Shown in pieces: positions 21,601-31,268 of a stretch of DNA of 64,000 nt. The DNA is taken from NCBI GenBank assembly GCA_000004985.1, contig GG738885.1; one strand, written 5' to 3'. Below the pieces are notes generated by a model, which did no database searches, was not told where the DNA came from, and was given only the letters and a program-made list of their open reading frames with translations. The position numbers and the translations under genes are program-made. This stretch comes from Naegleria gruberi. Taxonomy: Eukaryota. Position 1 is the first letter of the stretch. The number at the start of each line of letters is the position of its first letter.

Positions 21601-23781
21601 ATGGAGCGTTTAAAATCCCTCTTTAAAAGCACACGAGAAGTAACTGATCTTCAATCAAAACCAATAGAAGAATGGAGTGTAAAAGACTTTCAAGAATGGT
21701 TGAGAGAACATCAATATCAAAAGAAGGTTACACAGAGTAAGTGATTTTTAAAGTTTAATTATTCGAATATATAATGTTGTATGAAAGTTTTAAAAAAGGA
21801 AGAATGGAACGGAAAGTGTTTAATCGATTTTACAGAAGAAGATTTAAAAAAGCTAGGAATTCCAAGGTTTGTAATTTTATATAGCCTCCTTTCGAATAAT
21901 TTTAATTTTTACTTTCTAATAACAATTTATTGATGTAATTTCTATTATTATCAAAATTCGAATTGTACAATTATTATTATTATTAATATTATTTGGTGAT
22001 GATGATTTTAATTTTGATGATTCTTTATTTCACATGTCAAAATTTCTTTTTAACACTAAACACTTTTTACCAATTAATTGACAACATATATTAACACTTT
22101 TAATTGGTCTTTAAAACAGTGGTTCAGCTAAAGGTATAACCAATTCCATCAATCAACTCAAACAAGAACAAATCAAAGCAGGACTTTTCCAACCATCAAG
22201 AGCATCCAATGCTTCACAACGTTTAGATAATAATTCCACATCAACTACAACCTCAACAACAACAAACAATACTGATGATCCAAATAGTGCTGTTTCGAAT
22301 AATCGTCAATCATCAGAATCGAATACTAGTACTGGTACAGCAACAACAGATTCAACACAAAATGGTCATCAAGTGGTTCAATTGTTGGACAAATCAGAGG
22401 AGGAAGACAATTGTGAATCATCATCGGCAACAACAACTCAACAACGATCAAAGGGAGGTACTCTTTTTAATACATCATCTGGATCTGAAATGAATAGTAC
22501 TTCTGGAGGATTAGCTAACGGAAGTGAAAGATATGTTGCTGCACCTCCATTTCTTGTTTCCTCTCTGACAGGTGAAGAAAAGAAGGATTATGACAAGTGT
22601 TTAAAGAAGGTTGAATTGGCTTGTCAAGATTATCCACCTTCTGTTCAAGCTACTATTTGTCAAGATTGTATTTTCCCAGATAGATTTCAATATAGATATT
22701 TTAATCCACTGAGATTGTCAGATAAAGATAGACAAGTTAACAAAATGATGGAACCTTTCATTAAAGTTAAATTGGTCATTACTGAAATGGATACTGGTAT
22801 GGCTCATAGATTATTGAGATTAATTGGTACAAGAATTCACAAAACTATCAAATCTATGGATTACGGAATGTTTCACACTGCTCTCATTGTCGGTGTGTAT
22901 TATGTTGAGGTATGTTGTTATTGTTTTTATTTTTATGGAACGTATTTGAATTTACTTTCTAATTGAATGATAATATTATAATATCATCGTTACATAATAT
23001 TTAATAATAATAATAATTATCTATCATCAATATGTTTGTGATGTGAATTCACATTTTGAAAAAGTGGGTCGATTCTTCACTGGTGACAGTTAGAAAGAAG
23101 AGTAGTAGCAAGGCAGTTTTTGCAACAGACATTGCAACAATTTCAGGACAAGAAAATGTCGATAATGCTTTTAAAAATTTATCGGAATTGATTTGTACAT
23201 GGAACAGAACACGTGACTATGATAACAAGTCATCAAATTGTCAACATTTTTGTACTGAGGCAATTGAAAAACTTGGTTTAGCGTCAGCTTTTGATAAAAT
23301 TGCAAATCAAGGACCACTGAAGGAATATCTCACAAGACTCAAAACCACAGGAGCATGTGACATGTCATACAGAGTTAACGATGATGTTAAAGAAACATTA
23401 TTGAATTCTGATAGTATAACTCCTGAATTGACTGAATTCTTGAAATCTTCTGGAAATGCATTAACATTCCCTTCACACAAAATTCTCGATCAGTTCGTTC
23501 ACATTTTACAAGAAGAAGATCCACTCTATTTTGAGAATGAACCATTCGATTATGTTTTACTGAAAGCTTACGACAGAGCTTTCTGGTTAAGAAGTCAATC
23601 AAAGGGAACCGGTGGCGTTGATACTTCACATTATTGGACAAATCCAAACACTGGTGCTTGCATGTGTCCATTCAACAAGAATGCAACCAATGTTGAAAAT
23701 GAGGAAATTGTCAATTCAATCATTGGCAAAGATTTTGAACTTGGTTCTTATAGACCTACTTATCCTGTGAGATTGGATTAA
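21601..23781 (+). CDS. SAM-domain protein with a C-terminal PPPDE/LRAT-like (NlpC/P60 superfamily) putative thiol peptidase or acyltransferase domain; 4 exons 21601-21736, 21788-21866, 22120-22909, 23065-23781
   Basis: ATG is at 21601 (MERLKSL). Exons 1-2 encode a SAM-like motif (WSVKDFQEWLREHQYQKKVTQ|ILKKEEWNGKCLIDFTEEDLKKLGIP). Then comes an S/T/N-rich linker. The catalytic-type motifs are GMFHTALIVGVYYVE|WVDSSLV (His) and, ~100 aa later, SSNCQHFCTEAIEKLG (Cys in NCxHF). Introns are 51, 253 and 155 nt with GTAAGT/GTTTGT/GTATGT donors and consistent phases. Confidence 0.55.
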
Positions 23782-23953: not shown

Positions 23954-24187
23954 ATGTCCAACACTGATGATACTGATCATCATTACAAGCTTTTGATTGA
24001 TAATATTCTTCATGATCGGAAGAAGTATCCATTCCTTGGTCATAATTTTGTTCGATCTGCTCCGATTACAGAAGATGGAAGTGCCACTCATCATGATGAT
24101 AAAAAGGATTTATCAATTCCTATTGGAGCATATGCTTTTCTATTGGATGAATTGGGTTCTTGGGAAGCAATTTATAAGAAATTGTAA
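23954..24187 (+). CDS. Small hypothetical protein (77 aa)
   Basis: ATG is at 23954 (MSNTDDTDHHYKLLIDNIL...). The ORF is short and conserved-looking but unrecognised. Confidence 0.3.
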   Translation: MSNTDDTDHHYKLLIDNILHDRKKYPFLGHNFVRSAPITEDGSATHHDDKKDLSIPIGAYAFLLDELGSWEAIYKKL

Positions 24188-24275
24188 ATATTTTAATATT
24201 TATTTAAATATTTATTTAATTAATCTTTAATTTAATTGATCAAGATTTTCAAATATATTTGAAGATGTTTCAAAT

Positions 24276-27200
24276 ATGAATGAAGATGTTTGTCTTTTAA
24301 AGATTATTCCAACAGCAGAAGAAGTACAAAATGAAGATTGCATTGAAATTGGAGCTTCCAAATTTGGTGGTTGTCCTGATTTACCAGATTCTATCAATTG
24401 GCCACAAGGAATTGACTCAAATCCTGCCAAATTCATTGCTCAAATCAATTTGCATGATTTGAGATTTTATCACAGTCCAAAAGGTGTTTTACCTCAAAAG
24501 GGATGGTTATTCTTTTTTGTTGGAGTGGACAATGCAAATCATTCACAAGATATGAAACAAGTATTTAGTTTTTATTGGAATGGATCAAGGGATGAAATGA
24601 AAAGAAGATTATCATCCACATTTGAAACTCCAACTCGATTGATTTTTGATGAAAATTCTGAACAAGTGGAGAATGATTATCCAGATAGCTTTTCTTTTTA
24701 TTCGAATCCAATTCAATTGTTTGGACATTCACTCTTTGTGACCTATCCAATCACTACAATGCTATTGTATGCATCTGGTTATGTATTCTTTTTGGAAAGT
24801 GAAATTGAGGTAAGAAAGAGAAAGGGAATTCAATCCCTAATTAACAGATATGAAAGAAGGGGAACAACTGATTATATTTCACCAACGAATATTTCAATTC
24901 TATCACAAGAAGCATATGATAACAGTGGTCAAAGTAACACCTTCTTAACATTTGATTCAACTGCGTTGATTTTTAAGAGATATAGCTCTGTATATCAGAG
25001 TAGAGTTACTGATTGGGATACAAATTCATTTCTGCCACCATTTGTTAAGAGGCACGAACCAAGTAGAGAAAATGAACAGGAAACTGTTAAGTTTTGGAGA
25101 AGAAGTGAAATACTGACTCCTGGTCAAGTGATTTCACCTCCTAAAAAATTGATTACTGCTAATTTTATAACAGAGGATCCGATCAAAACTTCAGTAGACG
25201 AATCTCTTCCTGATACAATTTTAAATAAGGACAAGTGTTTTAGAATTAGTTCTATACTAGCACCAGAAGAATGTGCAGCATTAAGAGTTGCATCTTTACC
25301 TTTCTATACTAATATCCAATCTGAATATCCGAAAGAATATAGAAATTGTGAGAGAGCTCTTTTAAAAAGTCAAAAGTTAGCCGACTTGTTGTGGGAACGA
25401 ATTAAGCCATACCTCAATGAGAATGATTTTAAGAATGTGCTACCCTATGGTTTTGATAATAATGGAGTGTGGAAACCAATGGAAATTAATCCGTGCTTTC
25501 GTTTTTCAGCTTACAAACCAGACACTTATTTCAAACCTCATAAGGATGCACAATTTGTTAGAAATGATAATGAAAAGAGCATTTTCACACTTCTTATTTA
25601 TTTGAATGGAGTAAATCAAGGTGGTTCCACAACGTTCCTTCAAAAGATAAGAGATCAAGAAGCTGAGGATGGATCTGGAATGACCTTTAGAGTTTTACAT
25701 GATGAAAACCCTGAGGAAGGTTCTGTCATACTATTCAATCATGATCTCTATCATCAAGGTTCTGTTGTACGATATGAAAAGATTGTATTGAGAACTGAGA
25801 TTATATTTAAGAGAGTTGATGCATTGAGTGTTCCTCGTTCTGACTATAGAAATACAGAGGAATATGTCAAAGTTAGACAATTAATTGAGGAATCGAATGA
25901 ACTGGAAAAGCAAGGAGATACCAAGCAATCTCTGTTGAAATACCTTCATGCATTGGATTTACAAACTAACATGTCTCCATCTCTTCAATGGTCAGATTTG
26001 AGTAAGAAGAGCAATGTAGAAAGATTACCTGAGGAAATTATTGGAATAATTTGCTCCTTCTTAACAAGTAGAGAAATTGCTAGACAAATGATTCCTCTCT
26101 CTATTTTATTGAACTCTTATTCTAGAAGTCCAATCATTTGGAAGGAGAAATATTATCAAGAGTGGCATCATTCTTCGAATCCTGAAATTGAATACGAAGA
26201 CAATAGTAATCTTGATGATTTGGTTGTTTACTTTAGTGATAATGGAATGCCAGTGGAATGTAATCGAAATGAAATAATTTACAATGAAAATTCTAAGGAA
26301 TACAAGGATTGGTATGCAATGTTCATTTCAAGAAAGTATATGGATTTGTTCTGGTCTCCTGTTCTACTTGATCCAGGAACTTCTTCCTATCGTTATTCTC
26401 TACAAAATTCAGAGACTGCAGATAAGGATATTATGGTATGTGGTAAACCACATCATCCACAGTAAGTTATTGAAATATTTTCCTAACTAAATTAATTAAC
26501 AACTTTTCAGTTTCAATTTACCAGGATTTGGTATGTACGACATTCTTGCAGGGAGTAGAGCAGCAAACATTAGGAATTCACATTTGATATCTCGTCTTCC
26601 TCTTGTTGATGCTTGTGGAAGAATTGAAGATTATTTAAATTTCAAGACTTTCCTATTTCAATTATATGAAAATGACTTGAACGTCAAATTTCAAACACAT
26701 CCACTTGTGTTAGCTGTCCCATTTTCTTGGACAGAGAAAGATATTTTGATGGTTAAAAGAATAATTAATGAGCTTGGAATTCAGCTATCATGTCTAATAG
26801 ACTCTTCCAAATTGATTGCTTACAATTATTCGAAACCTAATTGTATTTTATTGAATATTTCAGCAAGTGGTACTGCTTGTGTACCAATCAGAAACTATGA
26901 GCCACTGAATGAAATGAAAATATTTGAGCCATTCAATGTTTCTTCCATTCCTCATTCTATGAATTTTTGGGATAATATTTATGGAGCTCTCAGAGTAGTA
27001 CTGATGGTGCCTCCAACCCCACTGGAACAATACGAAACAATGAAGGAAAAGTGGGAAGGTATCACTTATGGAACTAATTATGGAGTGGAGGTGAATTATA
27101 ATCAACATGTATTTGAGGCAGAAACTTTACTTACTATTGGAAACCAATTGTTTGTTAATGCATTCAAAGTATTGAGAAAAACAATTAAATCTCTACAGAT

Positions 27201-27435
27201 TAACAGTGATAGTATTGAGGATGTTTTAATTTGTGGCGGGTTTTCCTCAATACACGGCATGAAAGATAGATTAACACGTGAAATTAGAGAAATCTATCCT
27301 AATCTCAATTTGGAATTCAAATCTGATGAAATGGAAGTTATTGGCGGTGCTAAAATAATTTGTAACTTAGCAAAATTTAAACAACAACTTGAAGCGTTCC
27401 AATTAGACAACAATAAATTGCTTAATTTAAGTTGA
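24276..27435 (+). CDS. Single spliced gene encoding a multidomain fusion of DUF1963 (YwqG-like), a 2OG-Fe(II) oxygenase (prolyl-4-hydroxylase-like), an F-box-like motif and a complete actin-fold (actin-related protein) domain; exons 24276-26461 and 26511-27435
   Basis: ORFs 24276-26465 and 26533-27435 join in frame through a 49-nt intron (26462-26510) with donor CA|GTAAGT, whose TAA is the apparent stop, branch-like CTAAC at 26483 and acceptor TTTTCAG. The actin fold spans the junction. SPVLLDPGTSSYRYSL...IMVCGKPHHP|HFNLPGFG aligns to actin LVVDNGSGMCKAGFAG...SIVGRPRHQGVMVGMG. Downstream, HPLVLAVP (actin HPVLLTEAP), ILLNISASGTACVPI (IVLDSGDGVTH.VPI), VLICGGFSSIHGMKDRL (LSGGTTMYPGIADRM) and EVIGGAKII (WIGGSILASL) also match. 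Upstream domains are ASKFGGCPDLPDSINWP...FIAQINLHDL...LPQKGWLFFF (DUF1963), HKD...H oxygenase core (KPHKDAQFV...ILFNHDLYHQG) and LPEEIIGIICSFLTSREIARQM (F-box-like). Confidence 0.6.
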
Positions 27436-27511: not shown

Positions 27512-29626
27512 TTAAGGGTTTACATCTGTTATGTGTTTCGTGTAGGATTGAACTGATTCCCATTTTTTGTAAGTAGAGGTTTCTTGTAATCTCTTAAATG
27601 TATCAGATAGGTTTAGCAATAAATCAGGTCCTAAACAATCCCACAGTCTTTCGTATCCTATTTGCCCATCTTTATCACAATCTTTCATCAAAGCATAAAA
27701 CTCCTTCTTACAAACTGATGGAATATTCACTTCAAACTTGGAATAAGGTTGTATAAACTGACTTTCAATATCTTTCATGTCTGTTAACCTTACAACATTA
27801 CTCTCCTTCAATGATTTCAAAATAATATATAATTCATAATTCTCTGAGCTAAACTCCTTCTGACAATATTCCTTAAAAATCTTCAATATTTCAGAATTTT
27901 CCAATTCAATTTCTAAACTTTCATTCTTTTTCACATTTCTATTGGCTATCATTTTGTATATCTCAATAATTAGAACATTCCCACCACTCAATAACGTAAA
28001 ACTAAAACAAGCCAGAGTGTTGAATATTCCTGCCAAAATTTGAACAATATACGTATTTGATGAATCTACTAACAAATTTTCTAAACCTGATGTAATAGCA
28101 ATGATGACAGGAAGGATTAAAGTGAGAAGATCGACTCTAAGATAAAAAGGATCGTCATAGAAAAAGAATTTTCTCAAACCATCTCGAATAATAGATTTTC
28201 TTTGAGTAATGACATCATATATTACGCTCACTAATCCAATAATCCAGAGCAGGATAAGTAAAACCAATATTACAACTGGTCTATAAATATCAGCCAATGA
28301 CTTATCTTCATTAATGAAGAAAAATGTACTGACACAATTTACAATAATGGACAAGAAAAAAGTCATGACGACTGTCATTAGGAAACCACCTTTCTTAGAA
28401 GCCATCATTTTCAATAATTTCTCTCTTTTTGGGAATCTAACTATCAGAGAATATAGATTCCTCAAAAAATAAAATTGTGCAATTGTTGTAATATATATAA
28501 AAAACCACCAGATCATTACCAATAAGGAAACACTATACCAGAATCCAACACATGTCCTAGATAAACCCGTGAATGTTATCATTAGAGAAAATCCTAATAG
28601 TGAACAGTATGGCAATCCAATTCTTCTGATCATTGCAGGCTTTTTGTAAAGTTTCAATCCAAAGAACAAAACAAAGTAAGAAAATACAATCAAGAATTGA
28701 GGTATAATCCAATAATCTAGAACTGGAGAGAAATCCTCACCAAAGCAGCCACTTGTCTCACACATATAGCATGTTGAAGGCAAAAGTAAAGAGGAAATTG
28801 AATAGTACGAAAGATCTGTAAAATTTGAAGAGAATTTTCCAACTTGTTGAGAAATTATAGAATAATTAGCACTTATTTGAGTTCTTCCTGTAACCCCTTG
28901 TATTATTAGAAGATCTGTTTGTGAAAAGTTTGAATATCCAGAAAGCCATCTAAAATTTTGAGCATCTGATACGTCTGGACCATCTAAACATGAAGTTTGT
29001 TCATAATCAAATAAAGAACTGTCAAGTGTTAATGATTTGATTGTAGAAAATGAATAAACTTCGTATGGAATCAGTGGAAAGGCCACAAAATCACTAGTTT
29101 CCATAAATTTACCATCTGTCATTTGTACATCCCTGTAAAATCTCACATAGAAGGAGAAAATATAAGGATCCAGTAAAATAGAATCATACTTTCGCATGTA
29201 ATTTCTTCTCTGGCACATGTCTACGTGTAAATAAATGTTCGAGAAGGTTGATGTTGTAGATGAATCTCCTTTTGTAATAGGTATTTGATAAATACCAAAG
29301 AATTTGGTTAGGTACTTGGTAAATTCAGGTCTTGTGCCAACTGTCAGTTTGTTGTTTTTCAACCAATTCATAATAAAATTTCGTGTTTCATCGTGATTAT
29401 TCATAGATGCAATAACAGTCTGTTCATTGGATGTGAATTTGTTTTTCCACACAAAGAGTATTAGAAAAGTTCTTACACCAACAATTGTATCTCCATTCTT
29501 GATAGAAGAAAGCAGTGAAGAAGTTTGAGCGTGGGTCACACCATTCTTTCTTTCACATTGAACTATTGAACAAAACGTGATTAGAAGTATGATGAAATAC
29601 ACTAGTGTTTGTGTTGTTTTTTTCAT
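27512..29626 (-). CDS. Seven-transmembrane receptor-like protein with a C-terminal RGS domain (7TM-RGS hybrid), preceded by a signal peptide and a ~270-aa ectodomain
   Basis: 704 aa with ATG at 29626. The N-terminal MKKTTQTLVYFIILLITFCSIVQC is a signal-peptide-like segment. Seven hydrophobic helices lie between residues ~300 and ~560. The C-terminus YCQKEFSSENYELYIILKSL...KKEFYALMKDCD matches the RGS-box core (F..EFSEENL.FW). Confidence 0.65.
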   Translation of the reverse strand: MKKTTQTLVYFIILLITFCSIVQCERKNGVTHAQTSSLLSSIKNGDTIVGVRTFLILFVWKNKFTSNEQTVIASMNNHDETRNFIMNWLKNNKLTVGTRPEFTKYLTKFFGIYQIPITKGDSSTTSTFSNIYLHVDMCQRRNYMRKYDSILLDPYIFSFYVRFYRDVQMTDGKFMETSDFVAFPLIPYEVYSFSTIKSLTLDSSLFDYEQTSCLDGPDVSDAQNFRWLSGYSNFSQTDLLIIQGVTGRTQISANYSIISQQVGKFSSNFTDLSYYSISSLLLPSTCYMCETSGCFGEDFSPVLDYWIIPQFLIVFSYFVLFFGLKLYKKPAMIRRIGLPYCSLLGFSLMITFTGLSRTCVGFWYSVSLLVMIWWFFIYITTIAQFYFLRNLYSLIVRFPKREKLLKMMASKKGGFLMTVVMTFFLSIIVNCVSTFFFINEDKSLADIYRPVVILVLLILLWIIGLVSVIYDVITQRKSIIRDGLRKFFFYDDPFYLRVDLLTLILPVIIAITSGLENLLVDSSNTYIVQILAGIFNTLACFSFTLLSGGNVLIIEIYKMIANRNVKKNESLEIELENSEILKIFKEYCQKEFSSENYELYIILKSLKESNVVRLTDMKDIESQFIQPYSKFEVNIPSVCKKEFYALMKDCDKDGQIGYERLWDCLGPDLLLNLSDTFKRLQETSTYKKWESVQSYTKHITDVNP

Positions 29627-29788: not shown

Positions 29789-31268
29789 TTATTGATATTT
29801 AGCAAAAAGTAAACTCGAGTTTGTTCCGCCAAATCCAAACGAATTACATAAGGCAGCTCTCACATTAGTGTTGCATGATTGACCTTTAACAATTTGAATA
29901 TTTGATTTTTCTATACCTGTCAAATCATCATCCAGAGTTTCAAAATTAAGAGTTGGTGGAATAGAGTTATTGTAAATTGAAAGAACAGTTCCCACAGATT
30001 CTACTGCACCTGCTGCTCCAAGCATGTGTCCAAGAGATCCTTTCATGCTATTCACATATACAGTTTGTCCACTTTCTGCGAACAGGGATTGGATAGCTTG
30101 CAACTCTACTTTATCACCTGCTGGGGTGCTTGTTGCATGACAATTTACATGGTCAATATCATTCAAATTAATATCTACAATTGAATCATTCAAAGCATTC
30201 TTCATAGCTGTTATGGCTGCTCTACCATCTGGTGAAGGTGTAGTAGGGTGATAAGCATCAGCTGCTGTTCCATACCCAACAATTTCTGCGTAGATTCTTG
30301 CTCCTCTCTCTAAGGCGTGGTCCAATTCTTCCAAGACCAAACAACCTGCTCCTTCTGACATTACAAAACCATCTCTACTTTTATCAAATGGTCTACTCGA
30401 TGTTTGTGGATCTGTAATACCAGACAATGCTCTTGCTCTTGCAAATCCAACATAGAATATTGGATAGTAAGAATTTTCACATCCTCCAGCAAGCATAATT
30501 TTACCTTGACCATATTTGATAAATTGGAATGCCTCTCCAATGCTATGAGCTCCTGTAGCACATGCAGTTGAGCAACTAACCATTGGACCTTGTAAATCGT
30601 GTTGCATAGCAATATAACCAGCTGCCATATTGTTCAAAATACGTGGATAAAATACTGGGCTAACCTTTGTATGTTTCTGAATGATTTGCTTTCTAATGTT
30701 TTATATTACATTGGAAACTTACCAAGCTTTCAACCATTGTAAATGCTTCTCCAATTTCAGCTGCAGCTCCAAGAGAAGAGCCCACAGAAACACCAATACT
30801 ACTTCTATCTTTAATTGACTTGATATCCAATCCAGAATCGATAATAGCTTGATAAGCAGAAACCATACCAAATTGAATAAATTTTGATAATCTAGATTTT
30901 GTAATACTCTTATCTCTATTTGTTGATTCTGTAAATGCAAGACATTTTTCAATTGATTGATCCAACTCTGATTGATCGATAAATCCACCAATACGATTTG
31001 AAATCTTACTCCAAATATTTTGTTCATTCTCAGTCATATTTTCGATTGGTACTGTTCTAATACCACACTTTAAAGAATTTAATTCACTCCACATCTTTTC
31101 AACAGAATTTCCGAGTGGAGAAACAACACCCAAGCCTGTAACAACAACTCTTTTAGGCTTTGGAATTTCCTTCTTTACATTAAATGAATACTTTCTATAG
31201 TGTGTATTATGAGCATTGATAAGTTTAAATGATATTGATTTTCTATTCATCATTTTACTATTGAACAT
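29789..31268 (-). CDS. Mitochondrial-type 3-oxoacyl-[acyl-carrier-protein] synthase (KAS II / FabF-like, OXSM/CEM1 homolog); exons 31268-30723 and 30664-29789
   Basis: The N-terminus MFNSKMMNRKSISFKLINAHNTHYRKYSF has no acidic residues and looks like a presequence. The KAS N-domain follows (VVTGLGVVSPLG). After a 58-nt intron (GTAAGT...CAAAG), exon 2 continues VSPVFYPRILNNMAAGYIAMQHDLQGPMVSCSTACATGAHSIGEA (active-site Cys), ...HATSTPAGD..E (His), ...GHMLGAAG...NSFGFGGTN. Confidence 0.8.

What the first reader, a model, noticed from the sequence alone, without database searches (positions are those of the whole stretch)
24276..27435. One spliced gene fuses DUF1963, a 2OG-Fe(II) oxygenase, an F-box and a complete actin-related domain
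A 49-nt intron fuses the two ORF-track entries 24276-26465 and 26533-27435. It has a CA|GTAAGT donor overlapping the apparent TAA stop, a CTAAC branch-like motif and a TTTTCAG acceptor. The actin fold itself straddles the splice junction. The phosphate-1 loop (VLLDPGTSS versus actin LVVDNGSG) and ..CGKPHHP (..VGRPRHQ) lie in exon 1. HFNLPGFG (GVMVGMG), HPLVLAVP, the phosphate-2 loop and the adenosine loop lie in exon 2. The split domain therefore proves the junction. Upstream in the same 729-aa exon are a DUF1963/YwqG-like domain, which is otherwise mainly bacterial, a prolyl-hydroxylase-like HxD...H oxygenase and an F-box-like segment. I know of no described protein that combines an actin-fold ATPase with a 2OG oxygenase and an F-box.
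Basis: partly seen in the sequence, partly recalled or inferred. Interest (0 to 1): 0.7.

Follow-up and report, generated by a model that had tools for sequence, protein, structure and literature searches.

The report
Hydroxylase–F-box–actin-like fusion gene in Naegleria
The two reading frames are one spliced Naegleria gruberi gene, already annotated as an uncharacterised 'predicted protein', that joins a prolyl-hydroxylase-like enzyme, an F-box and a degenerate actin-like domain; this three-part core recurs in many protists and some fungi, but I found no paper on it.

Summary
A 49-nt GT-AG intron (26462-26510) joins ORFs 24276-26465 and 26533-27435 in frame. The 1036-aa product is 100% identical to the annotated Naegleria gruberi protein XP_002674260.1 / D2VP08 (NAEGRDRAFT_51124, 'predicted protein').

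Pfam finds DUF1963 (only the first half of the model), 2OG-FeII_Oxy_3 and Actin, and the Actin match spans the junction. The F-box is below threshold in this protein alone but clear at family level.

The fusion is not unique. The oxygenase–F-box–Arp core is a multi-copy family in Naegleria and Willaertia. It also occurs in Amoebozoa (Physarum, Tieghemostelium, Arcella), chytrid fungi and a centrohelid. Only the DUF1963 (TYPP) N-terminus is specific to this paralogue.

The oxygenase keeps an invariant HxD...H+K site, and its model is closest to protein prolyl 4-hydroxylases. The Arp domain has a complete actin fold (TM about 0.73) but has lost the phosphate-2 and catalytic residues, so it is probably a binding module, not an ATPase.

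Best reading: an O2/2-oxoglutarate-dependent protein hydroxylase carried on an SCF-type F-box receptor. Partial precedents are Arabidopsis ARP8 (F-box+Arp) and JcdI/KDM2 (F-box+JmjC). The function is untested, and I found no paper on the family.

The parts
24276..26461 (+). Exon 1 (728 codons + 2 nt; Met1 to the first two bases of His729)
   Evidence: ORF; coding-like codon usage throughout, including aa 117-268; identical to the annotated protein
26462..26510 (+). 49-nt spliceosomal intron, phase 2: GTAAGT donor, CTAAC at 26483-26487, TTTTCAG acceptor
   Evidence: homologues are continuous across it; related ORF calls break here; present in the annotated model
26511..27435 (+). Exon 2 (third base of His729 to Ser1036, plus the TGA stop at 27433-27435)
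24357..24623 (+). DUF1963/YwqG-type TYPP repeat 1 (aa 28-116; GGxP motif SKFGGCPDLP and the Q of AQINL)
   Evidence: Pfam PF09234, 52-56 bits against a cut-off of 23, profile positions 1-94 of 216 only; absent from all other family members examined
24624..25085 (+). aa 117-270: open, coding-like region with no detectable homology (a possible degenerate second TYPP repeat or a linker)
   Evidence: No Pfam or PDB match; codon score 0.34 bits/codon in frame; pLDDT below 50
25233..25820 (+). Prolyl-4-hydroxylase-like 2OG/Fe(II) oxygenase domain (aa about 320-515). H422 = 25539-25541, D424 = 25545-25547, H493 = 25752-25754, K502 = 25779-25781
   Evidence: Pfam PF13640, 30 bits against 27; H/D/H/K invariant in 161-164 family rows; pLDDT 90-98; nearest PDB folds are protein P4Hs
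25857..25973 (+). Conserved two-helix linker (aa 528-566) between the oxygenase and the F-box
   Evidence: Helices 528-545 and 549-566 in both models; conserved motif SNELEKQG; my own 'link' HMM matched about a third of the top 152 hits
26019..26177 (+). F-box (aa 582-634; LPEEIIGIICSFLT...IIW)
   Evidence: Pfam sub-threshold on this protein; significant in 3 of 5 close homologues and 56 of 98 family representatives; HMM built from 89 non-heterolobosean members hits it at E=8.8e-12; three helices at 586-630
26352..27399 (+). Actin-related (Arp) domain, aa about 693-1025, interrupted by the intron
   Evidence: Pfam Actin, 38 bits against 27, match 695-857; the family profile aligns with actin residues 1-331; Foldseek TM 0.72-0.75 to whole actin; nucleotide-site residues degenerate
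23954..24244 (+). UNCERTAIN: candidate unannotated 5' exon (23954-24183) plus a 61-nt candidate intron (24184-24244, GTAAAT...CAAG) that would add 87 aa in frame
   Evidence: Coding-like codon usage, 0.49 bits/codon; in-frame join; not in the annotated model; no homology support

Best explanation
The locus is the Naegleria gruberi gene NAEGRDRAFT_51124. It has two exons and one 49-nt intron and encodes a 1036-aa protein. The protein belongs to a conserved but uncharacterised eukaryotic family whose core is a prolyl-4-hydroxylase-type Fe(II)/2-oxoglutarate oxygenase, a helical linker, an F-box and a divergent actin-related domain.

Most likely mechanism (inferred): the F-box docks the protein on Skp1 of an SCF ubiquitin ligase. 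The Arp domain has lost its ATPase residues and serves as the partner- or substrate-binding module, as other degenerate Arps do. The oxygenase is catalytically competent and hydroxylates a protein held in the complex, using O2 and 2-oxoglutarate. That protein could be a recruited substrate, Skp1, or the family's own invariant HPHF loop. Target recognition or stability would then depend on oxygen and metabolite levels.

This N. gruberi-specific paralogue has additionally gained an N-terminal half TYPP (DUF1963/YwqG) module. That module is predicted in the literature to bind extended peptides, so it may act as an extra recruitment or chaperone-like adaptor.

Shown here: the gene structure, the domain identities, conservation of the architecture, conservation of the catalytic residues, and loss of the Arp nucleotide-site residues. 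Inferred only: Skp1 binding, hydroxylase activity, and the identity of the substrates.
For: Splice and gene model.

Domains: Pfam DUF1963, 2OG-FeII_Oxy_3 and Actin are all above the gathering score. The F-box is supported through the family.

Architecture conserved: in Naegleria lovaniensis, N. fowleri, N. gruberi paralogues and Willaertia; in Physarum, Tieghemostelium, Arcella, Dracoamoeba, two chytrids and Pterocystis. The exhaustive profile search gave 263 proteins at E<=1e-30. Of 98 near-full-length representatives, 98 have the oxygenase, 56 an F-box and 37 a Pfam Actin hit.

Catalytic site: H422, D424, H493 and K502 are invariant across 161-164 rows. The oxygenase model has pLDDT 90-98. 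Its nearest solved folds are protein prolyl hydroxylases, including the Dictyostelium Skp1 hydroxylase PhyA and human PHD2.

Arp domain: the fold is complete but the phosphate-2 and catalytic residues are replaced.

Precedent: Dictyostelium JcdI carries a dioxygenase and a functional F-box, binds Skp1 through it and is O2-limited (PMC9485057). The TYPP domain is predicted to mediate peptide binding or a chaperone-like role (PMC4275035).
Against: There is no biochemical, transcript or interaction data for any family member. In this particular protein the F-box is below the Pfam threshold. The DUF1963 part is only half a domain and does not fold confidently, so it may be a decaying remnant. No substrate is known. 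The F-box could regulate the enzyme's own level rather than make it a substrate receptor. Only 37 of 98 relatives have a Pfam-detectable Actin domain, so the Arp module is not universal in the family.
Confidence: 0.6

Rival explanations
1. The F-box is mainly autoregulatory. The protein is a free-standing O2-dependent hydroxylase, and Skp1/SCF association controls its abundance or solubility, as proposed for Dictyostelium JcdI. It does not act as a substrate receptor. The Arp domain then targets the enzyme to actin or Arp-containing structures.
For: For JcdI, the F-box was not needed for the O2-sensitising phenotype but may mediate its reduced levels, and Skp1 was needed for solubility (PMC9485057). 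The domain order here (enzyme N-terminal, F-box internal) differs from typical receptors with an N-terminal F-box.
Against: An F-box followed by a C-terminal interaction domain (here the Arp) is the canonical receptor layout. That layout is what the family conserves.
Confidence: 0.2
2. The DUF1963 N-terminus is not a functional part of the protein. It would be a remnant of an adjacent or captured gene, and translation effectively starts further downstream. In that case this paralogue is simply another oxygenase-F-box-Arp protein.
For: Only the first 94 of 216 profile positions match. The N-terminal 270 aa found no homologue. pLDDT is below 50. No other family member has the domain. The gene has no 1:1 orthologue in N. 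fowleri or N. lovaniensis.
Against: The frame stays open for 268 codons in DNA of 32% GC, with in-frame coding-like codon usage (0.34-0.38 bits/codon; off-frame -0.4 to -1.2). The GGxP and Q hallmarks are intact. The annotated model includes the region. A coding-like ORF lies even further upstream.
Confidence: 0.12
3. The Arp domain is a working actin-like ATPase that polymerises or hydrolyses ATP. This would make the protein a nucleotide-driven machine, as the reader's phrase 'actin-fold ATPase' implies.
For: The four-subdomain fold is complete. D11 and G13 of phosphate-1 and G301-G302 of the adenosine loop are retained.
Against: Q137S, D154N, G156S, D157A, G158S, H161A, K213V, E214L and K336E in the window protein. 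These positions vary freely among paralogues. Identity to beta-actin is about 17%. The profile's best PDB matches include Arp7 and Arp9.
Confidence: 0.08

Closest known systems
[quoted passage not shown]
   Same: An F-box placed N-terminal to a divergent actin-related domain in one polypeptide.
   Different: By my recollection ARP8 has no oxygenase or TYPP domain; the paper itself was not held. Whether the two F-box-Arp units share ancestry was not tested, because no ARP8 sequence was available.
Dictyostelium JcdI/Fbxo13 and JcdH (PMC9485057); by my recollection human KDM2A/B (FBXL11/10) also combine JmjC and F-box
   Same: A non-haem Fe(II)/2OG dioxygenase and an F-box in one protein. JcdI binds Skp1 through its F-box and is limited by physiological O2. 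It is conserved across protists.
   Different: The JmjC-type catalytic domain lies C-terminal to the F-box. Here a P4H-type domain lies N-terminal to it. JcdI has no actin-fold domain.
Protein prolyl 4-hydroxylases: P. putida PPHD (4j25, 4iw3), Chlamydomonas P4H-1 (3gze, 2jij), B. anthracis P4H (3itq, 5hv0), Dictyostelium PhyA (6t8m), human PHD2
   Same: Best structural matches of the oxygenase model and best PDB sequence matches. HxD...H plus a basic residue after the distal His.
   Different: Only 12-19% identity. Those enzymes are stand-alone, or carry other accessory domains, and have defined substrates (EF-Tu, Skp1, HIF-alpha, Pro-rich peptides). Here the substrate is unknown and the domain is fused to an F-box and an Arp.
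Structural Arps, for example yeast Arp7/Arp9 and Arp4/BAF53
   Same: Among the best PDB sequence matches of the Arp profile and also found by Foldseek. By my recollection these are divergent actin folds used as structural or binding modules.
   Different: Those are stand-alone subunits of chromatin remodellers. No specific orthology was detected here, so this is an orphan Arp.
YwqG/DUF1963 family of the TYPP superfamily (Burroughs & Aravind 2014, PMC4275035)
   Same: Pfam match with the GGxP motif and the conserved Q. That paper notes the family is mostly bacterial with a small group of eukaryotes, and predicts peptide-binding or chaperone-like roles.
   Different: Only the first of the two repeats is detectable. 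A fusion to an oxygenase-F-box-Arp protein is not among the fusions quoted in the passages I read.
Dictyostelium filactin (PMC2441452)
   Same: An actin-fold domain at the C-terminus of a long multi-domain N-terminal extension in an amoeboid protist.
   Different: [quoted passage not shown] The actin-fold domain here is highly divergent and its nucleotide site is degenerate.

Membership tests
Actin / actin-related protein superfamily (Pfam PF00022) | Sequence match above the Pfam gathering score | tested here: met
   38 bits against a cut-off of 27, residues 695-857 plus a C-terminal stretch. All 5 close homologues match. The family profile aligns with actin residues 1-331.
Actin / actin-related protein superfamily (Pfam PF00022) | Complete four-subdomain actin fold | tested here: met
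   AF2 model with pLDDT 70-94 over 690-1025. Foldseek against whole actins gave TM (target) 0.72-0.75 over about 370 columns, E about 1e-16.
Actin / actin-related protein superfamily (Pfam PF00022) | Intact nucleotide-binding and hydrolysis residues (phosphate-1, phosphate-2, Q137, H161, adenosine loop) | tested here: not met
   D11, G13, G301 and G302 are kept. Replaced: Q137S, D154N, G156S, D157A, G158S, H161A, K213V, E214L, K336E. So it has the Arp fold but is probably not an ATPase.
2OG/Fe(II) oxygenase, prolyl-4-hydroxylase type (PF13640) | Pfam match above the gathering score | tested here: met
   30 bits against 27, residues 409-503. 98 of 98 family representatives match.
2OG/Fe(II) oxygenase, prolyl-4-hydroxylase type (PF13640) | HxD...H iron triad plus a basic 2OG-binding residue | tested here: met
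   H422 163/163, D424 164/164, H493 164/164, K502 161/161, R506 152/161.
2OG/Fe(II) oxygenase, prolyl-4-hydroxylase type (PF13640) | Double-stranded beta-helix fold closest to protein P4Hs | tested here: met
   Model pLDDT 90-98. The top Foldseek PDB hits are PPHD, CrP4H, BaP4H, DdPhyA and PHD2.
2OG/Fe(II) oxygenase, prolyl-4-hydroxylase type (PF13640) | Prolyl hydroxylase activity on a defined substrate | not testable with these tools
   Needs a recombinant enzyme assay and mass spectrometry.
F-box proteins (PF00646 / PF12937) | F-box sequence match | tested here: inconclusive
   This protein alone scores 13.1 bits against 24.3. The homologous segment is significant in 3 of 5 close homologues and 56 of 98 representatives. 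An HMM of that segment from 89 non-heterolobosean members hits 582-634 at E=8.8e-12, with the LPxxI...W consensus. A three-helix prediction covers the segment.
F-box proteins (PF00646 / PF12937) | Binding to Skp1 and assembly into SCF | not testable with these tools
   Needs co-IP or co-expression with N. gruberi Skp1.
DUF1963 / YwqG family of the TYPP superfamily (PF09234) | Pfam match above the gathering score, with the GGxP motif and the conserved Q | tested here: met
   52-56 bits against 23. SKFGGCPDLP and AQINL are read directly from the sequence. The motifs are as defined in PMC4275035.
DUF1963 / YwqG family of the TYPP superfamily (PF09234) | Both repeats of the duplicated beta unit present | tested here: not met
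   Only profile positions 1-94 of 216 align. Nothing was detected for aa 117-270. pLDDT is below 50.
Spliceosomal intron | GT-AG boundaries, frame restored, coding continuity supported by homologues | tested here: met
Spliceosomal intron | Removal seen in transcripts | not testable with these tools
   No RNA data were available. The annotated model agrees but may itself be a prediction.

The most novel reading that the evidence does not exclude
The P4H-type oxygenase–F-box–Arp proteins would form an undescribed, anciently distributed module (Discoba, Amoebozoa, chytrid fungi, centrohelids). The module would couple O2/2-oxoglutarate sensing directly to SCF ubiquitination of actin or of partners of actin-fold proteins. 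The Arp domain would dock on actin or another Arp. The tethered hydroxylase would modify the docked protein, Skp1, or the family's own invariant HPHF loop, which lies at the actin D-loop position. In Naegleria the family has expanded to at least five paralogues with swapped accessory domains (TYPP here, START in another). That would give an amoeba, which lives by actin-based motility, a set of oxygen-gated cytoskeletal or nuclear regulators.
Probability: 0.15. Interest if true: 0.75.

Novelty: new variant of a known kind. Interest (0 to 1): 0.45.

Why it matters
F-box proteins in protists are poorly charted. One dioxygenase-bearing F-box protein, JcdI, has already been tied to oxygen sensing in Dictyostelium. 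A second family would extend the hydroxylation–ubiquitination link known from PHD/HIF and PhyA/Skp1 to actin-fold proteins. This family is structurally different: it has a P4H-type enzyme and an actin-fold domain where a substrate-binding domain would normally sit. It is found in several eukaryotic supergroups and is expanded in Naegleria, the genus that includes the pathogen N. fowleri.

For this window the practical result is more modest. The gene is real, correctly spliced and already annotated. Its unique feature is a half TYPP/DUF1963 domain added at the N-terminus.

Tried and rejected
- Splice motifs as statistical evidence: rejected. GTAAGT is depleted in the window, and the donor-branch-acceptor pattern is at chance level.
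- Word-indexed homologue search with the N-terminal 270 aa: no hit at E<=1e-3.
- phmmer of the N-terminus (with the candidate 5' exon) against PDB: no YwqG (1PV5) hit, only noise.
- Full-length phmmer against PDB: only marginal Arp4/BAF53 and BaP4H hits (E 0.2-1). Family profiles were needed.
- The look-up of encoding contigs for P0002, the ORF2 product and P0156: nothing on record. Annotated neighbours in the N. gruberi scaffold could therefore not be read.
It was rerun with the exon products as separate rows.
- The afdb50 fold library was unavailable.
- The Kandasamy 2008 ARP8 paper was not held, so only its title, seen in another paper's reference list, is cited. No ARP8 sequence was available for a homology test.
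- Accession-number and keyword literature searches found no paper on this protein or family.
- Intron position in the N. lovaniensis relative: there is an intron 7 codons downstream, not at the same site, so it is not used as support.
- A bacterial or contaminant origin was considered and dropped. The window is 32% GC throughout, contains introns, and the product matches an N. gruberi nuclear gene.
- No tRNA genes in the window.
Full report
**What is there**

The window is AT-rich eukaryotic DNA (about 32% GC throughout). Between them lies a 49-nt segment, 26462-26510: GTAAGTTATTGAAATATTTTCCTAACTAAATTAATTAACAACTTTTCAG. Removing it restores the frame. The split codon CA|T gives His729, followed by FNLPGFG and then the Met that starts the second ORF. 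The product is 1036 aa.

**Is the splice more than chance?**

The motifs alone are not. GTAAGT is depleted in the window (8 and 7 copies per strand against about 23 in shuffles). The donor-branch-acceptor pattern occurs once per strand against 1.9 expected. Independent evidence is strong:

- The joined protein is 1036/1036 identical to the annotated Naegleria gruberi protein XP_002674260.1 / EFC41516.1 / UniProt D2VP08, NAEGRDRAFT_51124, 'predicted protein'.
- In an alignment with four heterolobosean homologues, P725, H727, P728, H729 and F730 straddle the junction and are invariant. The HPHF/HPHY motif also persists in the two Physarum homologues.
- The Pfam Actin match (695-857) crosses residue 729.
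- ORF calls on related environmental contigs break at the same place. P0027 (69% identical) loses similarity right after ...HPQ, that is on reading into an intron. P0015 (98%) and P0029 (43%) begin at the Met just after it.

A relative in N. lovaniensis has four introns of 54-69 nt. One lies 7 codons downstream of this site, not at it, so I do not count it as support.

**Domains**

- *DUF1963.* Pfam on the joined product gives DUF1963 at 28-116 (52 bits, cut-off 23), but only profile positions 1-94 of 216 align. DUF1963/YwqG is a family of the two-repeat TYPP superfamily, marked by a GGxP motif and a conserved Q and predicted to bind peptides (PMC4275035). Here only repeat 1 is detectable (SKFGGCPDLP, AQINL).
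- *Residues 117-270.* These have no detectable homology and fold with pLDDT below 50. The frame is nevertheless open with coding-like codon usage (0.34 bits/codon in frame against -0.5 and -1.2 out of frame).
- *Oxygenase.* 2OG-FeII_Oxy_3 matches at 409-503 (30 bits, cut-off 27).
- *Actin.* Actin matches at 695-857 plus a C-terminal stretch (38 bits, cut-off 27).
- *F-box.* The F-box is below threshold in this protein alone (13.1 bits against 24.3). The aligned segment is a significant F-box-like hit in 3 of 5 close homologues and in 56 of 98 family representatives. An HMM built only from 89 non-heterolobosean members hits residues 582-634 at E=8.8e-12, with a canonical LPxxI...L...W consensus. 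AF2 predicts three helices there.

**The fusion is a family, not a one-off**

The word-indexed search found only four Naegleria and Willaertia proteins, and these lack the DUF1963 part. The exhaustive profile search found 5166 proteins at E<=1e-3 and 263 at E<=1e-30.

Members named by their sources:

- at least five N. lovaniensis paralogues;
- N. fowleri proteins;
- further N. gruberi paralogues of 868, 1406, 662 and 659 aa, one of them annotated 'prolyl 4-hydroxylase alpha subunit family';
- Willaertia magna;
- Physarum polycephalum (two);
- the dictyostelid Tieghemostelium lacteum;
- Arcella, Pyxidicula and Dracoamoeba;
- the chytrids Rhizophlyctis rosea and Nowakowskiella;
- the centrohelid Pterocystis.

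Pfam shows 2OG-FeII_Oxy_3 + F-box + Actin in Physarum, Tieghemostelium, Pterocystis and several metagenomic members. Of 98 representatives 550-1300 aa long, 98 have the oxygenase, 56 an F-box and 37 a Pfam Actin hit.

Accessory domains vary: NADAR, Macro, WWE, WW, ankyrin, rhodanese, FYVE and START. DUF1963 occurs only in the window's protein.

A neighbour-joining tree puts the heterolobosean genes in one clade (100% bootstrap). Within it there is an orthologous trio and an expanded subfamily with lineage-specific duplications. The window's gene is an N. gruberi-specific branch with no 1:1 orthologue in N. fowleri or N. lovaniensis.

**Oxygenase**

H422, D424, H493 and K502 are invariant in all 161-164 aligned family rows, and R506 in 152 of 161. 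With a 103-sequence alignment, AF2 models residues 320-570 at pLDDT 90-98.

The nearest solved structures are protein prolyl 4-hydroxylases:

- Pseudomonas putida PPHD, alone and with EF-Tu;
- Chlamydomonas P4H-1;
- Bacillus anthracis P4H;
- Dictyostelium PhyA, the Skp1 hydroxylase;
- human PHD2.

Profile-to-PDB sequence search agrees, giving BaP4H at E=0.004.

**Arp domain**

The family profile aligns with actin over essentially its whole length (profile 2-325 against actin 1-331). The best PDB matches are an 'HC1 actin', yeast Arp7, actins and Arp9. The AF2 model (pLDDT 70-94) superposes on whole actins with TM 0.72-0.75 over about 370 columns. The fold is complete.

The nucleotide machinery is not. 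D11, G13 and G301-G302 are kept. Q137S, D154N, G156S, D157A, G158S, H161A, K213V, E214L and K336E are replaced, and these positions vary among paralogues. Identity to beta-actin is about 17%. This is an orphan, probably non-catalytic Arp used as a binding module.

Its 'phosphate-2 loop' is only positionally present.

**Mechanism (inferred)**

The conserved order is enzyme, helical linker, F-box, C-terminal interaction domain. This fits an SCF substrate receptor that carries its own O2/2OG-dependent protein hydroxylase.

The closest experimental precedent is Dictyostelium JcdI/Fbxo13. It is a JmjC dioxygenase with a functional F-box that binds Skp1, has a Km(O2) of about 22%, and is conserved across protists (PMC9485057). 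An autoregulatory role for the F-box, as discussed for JcdI, is the main rival.

The half TYPP domain would add a peptide-binding adaptor in this paralogue, or it may be a decaying remnant. An active actin-like ATPase is unlikely.

**Comparison with known proteins and novelty**

- F-box + Arp is known from Arabidopsis ARP8 (the title of PMID 18385164, cited in PMC8066076).
- F-box + dioxygenase is known from JcdI (PMC9485057) and, from my own knowledge, from KDM2A/B.

I found no paper that mentions this protein, its accessions, or a P4H-F-box-Arp family. The gene model and its domain hits are in public databases.

I therefore rate the family as a new (undescribed) variant of known kinds. The window's gene is a member with a unique added TYPP half-domain. 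Interest is moderate: the gene is real, conserved and suggestive for oxygen sensing and actin biology, but it is already annotated, it is built from familiar domains, and there are no functional data.

**Seen in passing**

A 77-codon ORF just upstream (23954-24187) has coding-like codon usage (0.49 bits/codon). A 61-nt GTAAAT...CAAG candidate intron (24184-24244) would join it in frame to the open frame preceding Met1, adding 87 aa. This is not in the annotated model and has no homology support.

Noticed in passing
window 23954-24244 (+): A 77-codon ORF (ATG at 23954, stop at 24185-24187) has coding-like codon usage: 0.49 bits/codon, against an in-frame gene mean of 0.38±0.15 and an off-frame mean of -0.83. 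A 61-nt candidate intron (24184-24244, GTAAAT...GATCAAG) would splice it in frame (TT|A = Leu) to the open frame upstream of the annotated Met at 24276, adding 87 aa. It is not in the annotated model and has no Pfam or PDB match. It could be an unannotated 5' exon or a separate small gene.
   Followed up: partly
window protein residues 725-730 (nt 26448-26461 and 26511-26514): The motif P-x-H-P-H-F at the actin D-loop position is invariant in the heterolobosean homologues, and HPHF/HPHY is kept in the Physarum members. The intron splits the codon of the second His. A conserved, exposed proline next to a tethered prolyl-hydroxylase-like domain suggests a possible self-substrate. This is speculation only.
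   Followed up: partly
family members P0020, P0158 and others in alignments A6/A7 (not in the window): Relatives carry varied accessory domains on the same oxygenase–F-box core. Several are ADP-ribose-related (NADAR, Macro, WWE). Others are WW, ankyrin, rhodanese, FYVE and, in an N. gruberi paralogue of 1406 aa, START.
   Followed up: no
window 27512-29626 (-) and L001 1-279: The convergent neighbour is a 704-aa multi-pass membrane protein with a C-terminal RGS domain (Pfam E=3e-6). An RGS-domain gene also lies about 7 kb upstream of the N. lovaniensis relative. This may be coincidence or remnant synteny.
   Followed up: no
window 22373-23781 (+): Two ORFs (22373-22966 and 23056-23781) look like one gene split by an intron with a GAG|GTATGT donor near 22910. 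Neither part has a Pfam match.
   Followed up: no
whole window: The hexamer GTAAGT is about three-fold under-represented on both strands relative to composition-matched shuffles (8 and 7 copies against about 23).
   Followed up: partly
window 29789-30637 (-): This ORF encodes the C-terminal two-thirds of a beta-ketoacyl synthase (Ketoacyl-synt_C E=2e-34; the N-terminal domain matches from profile position 149). The gene probably continues upstream through an intron.
   Followed up: no
P0004 (N. fowleri FDP41_008733), not in the window: The annotated N. fowleri model lacks the segment that holds the F-box in its N. lovaniensis orthologue (76% identical elsewhere). This is probably a gene-model error rather than a real loss.
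   Followed up: no
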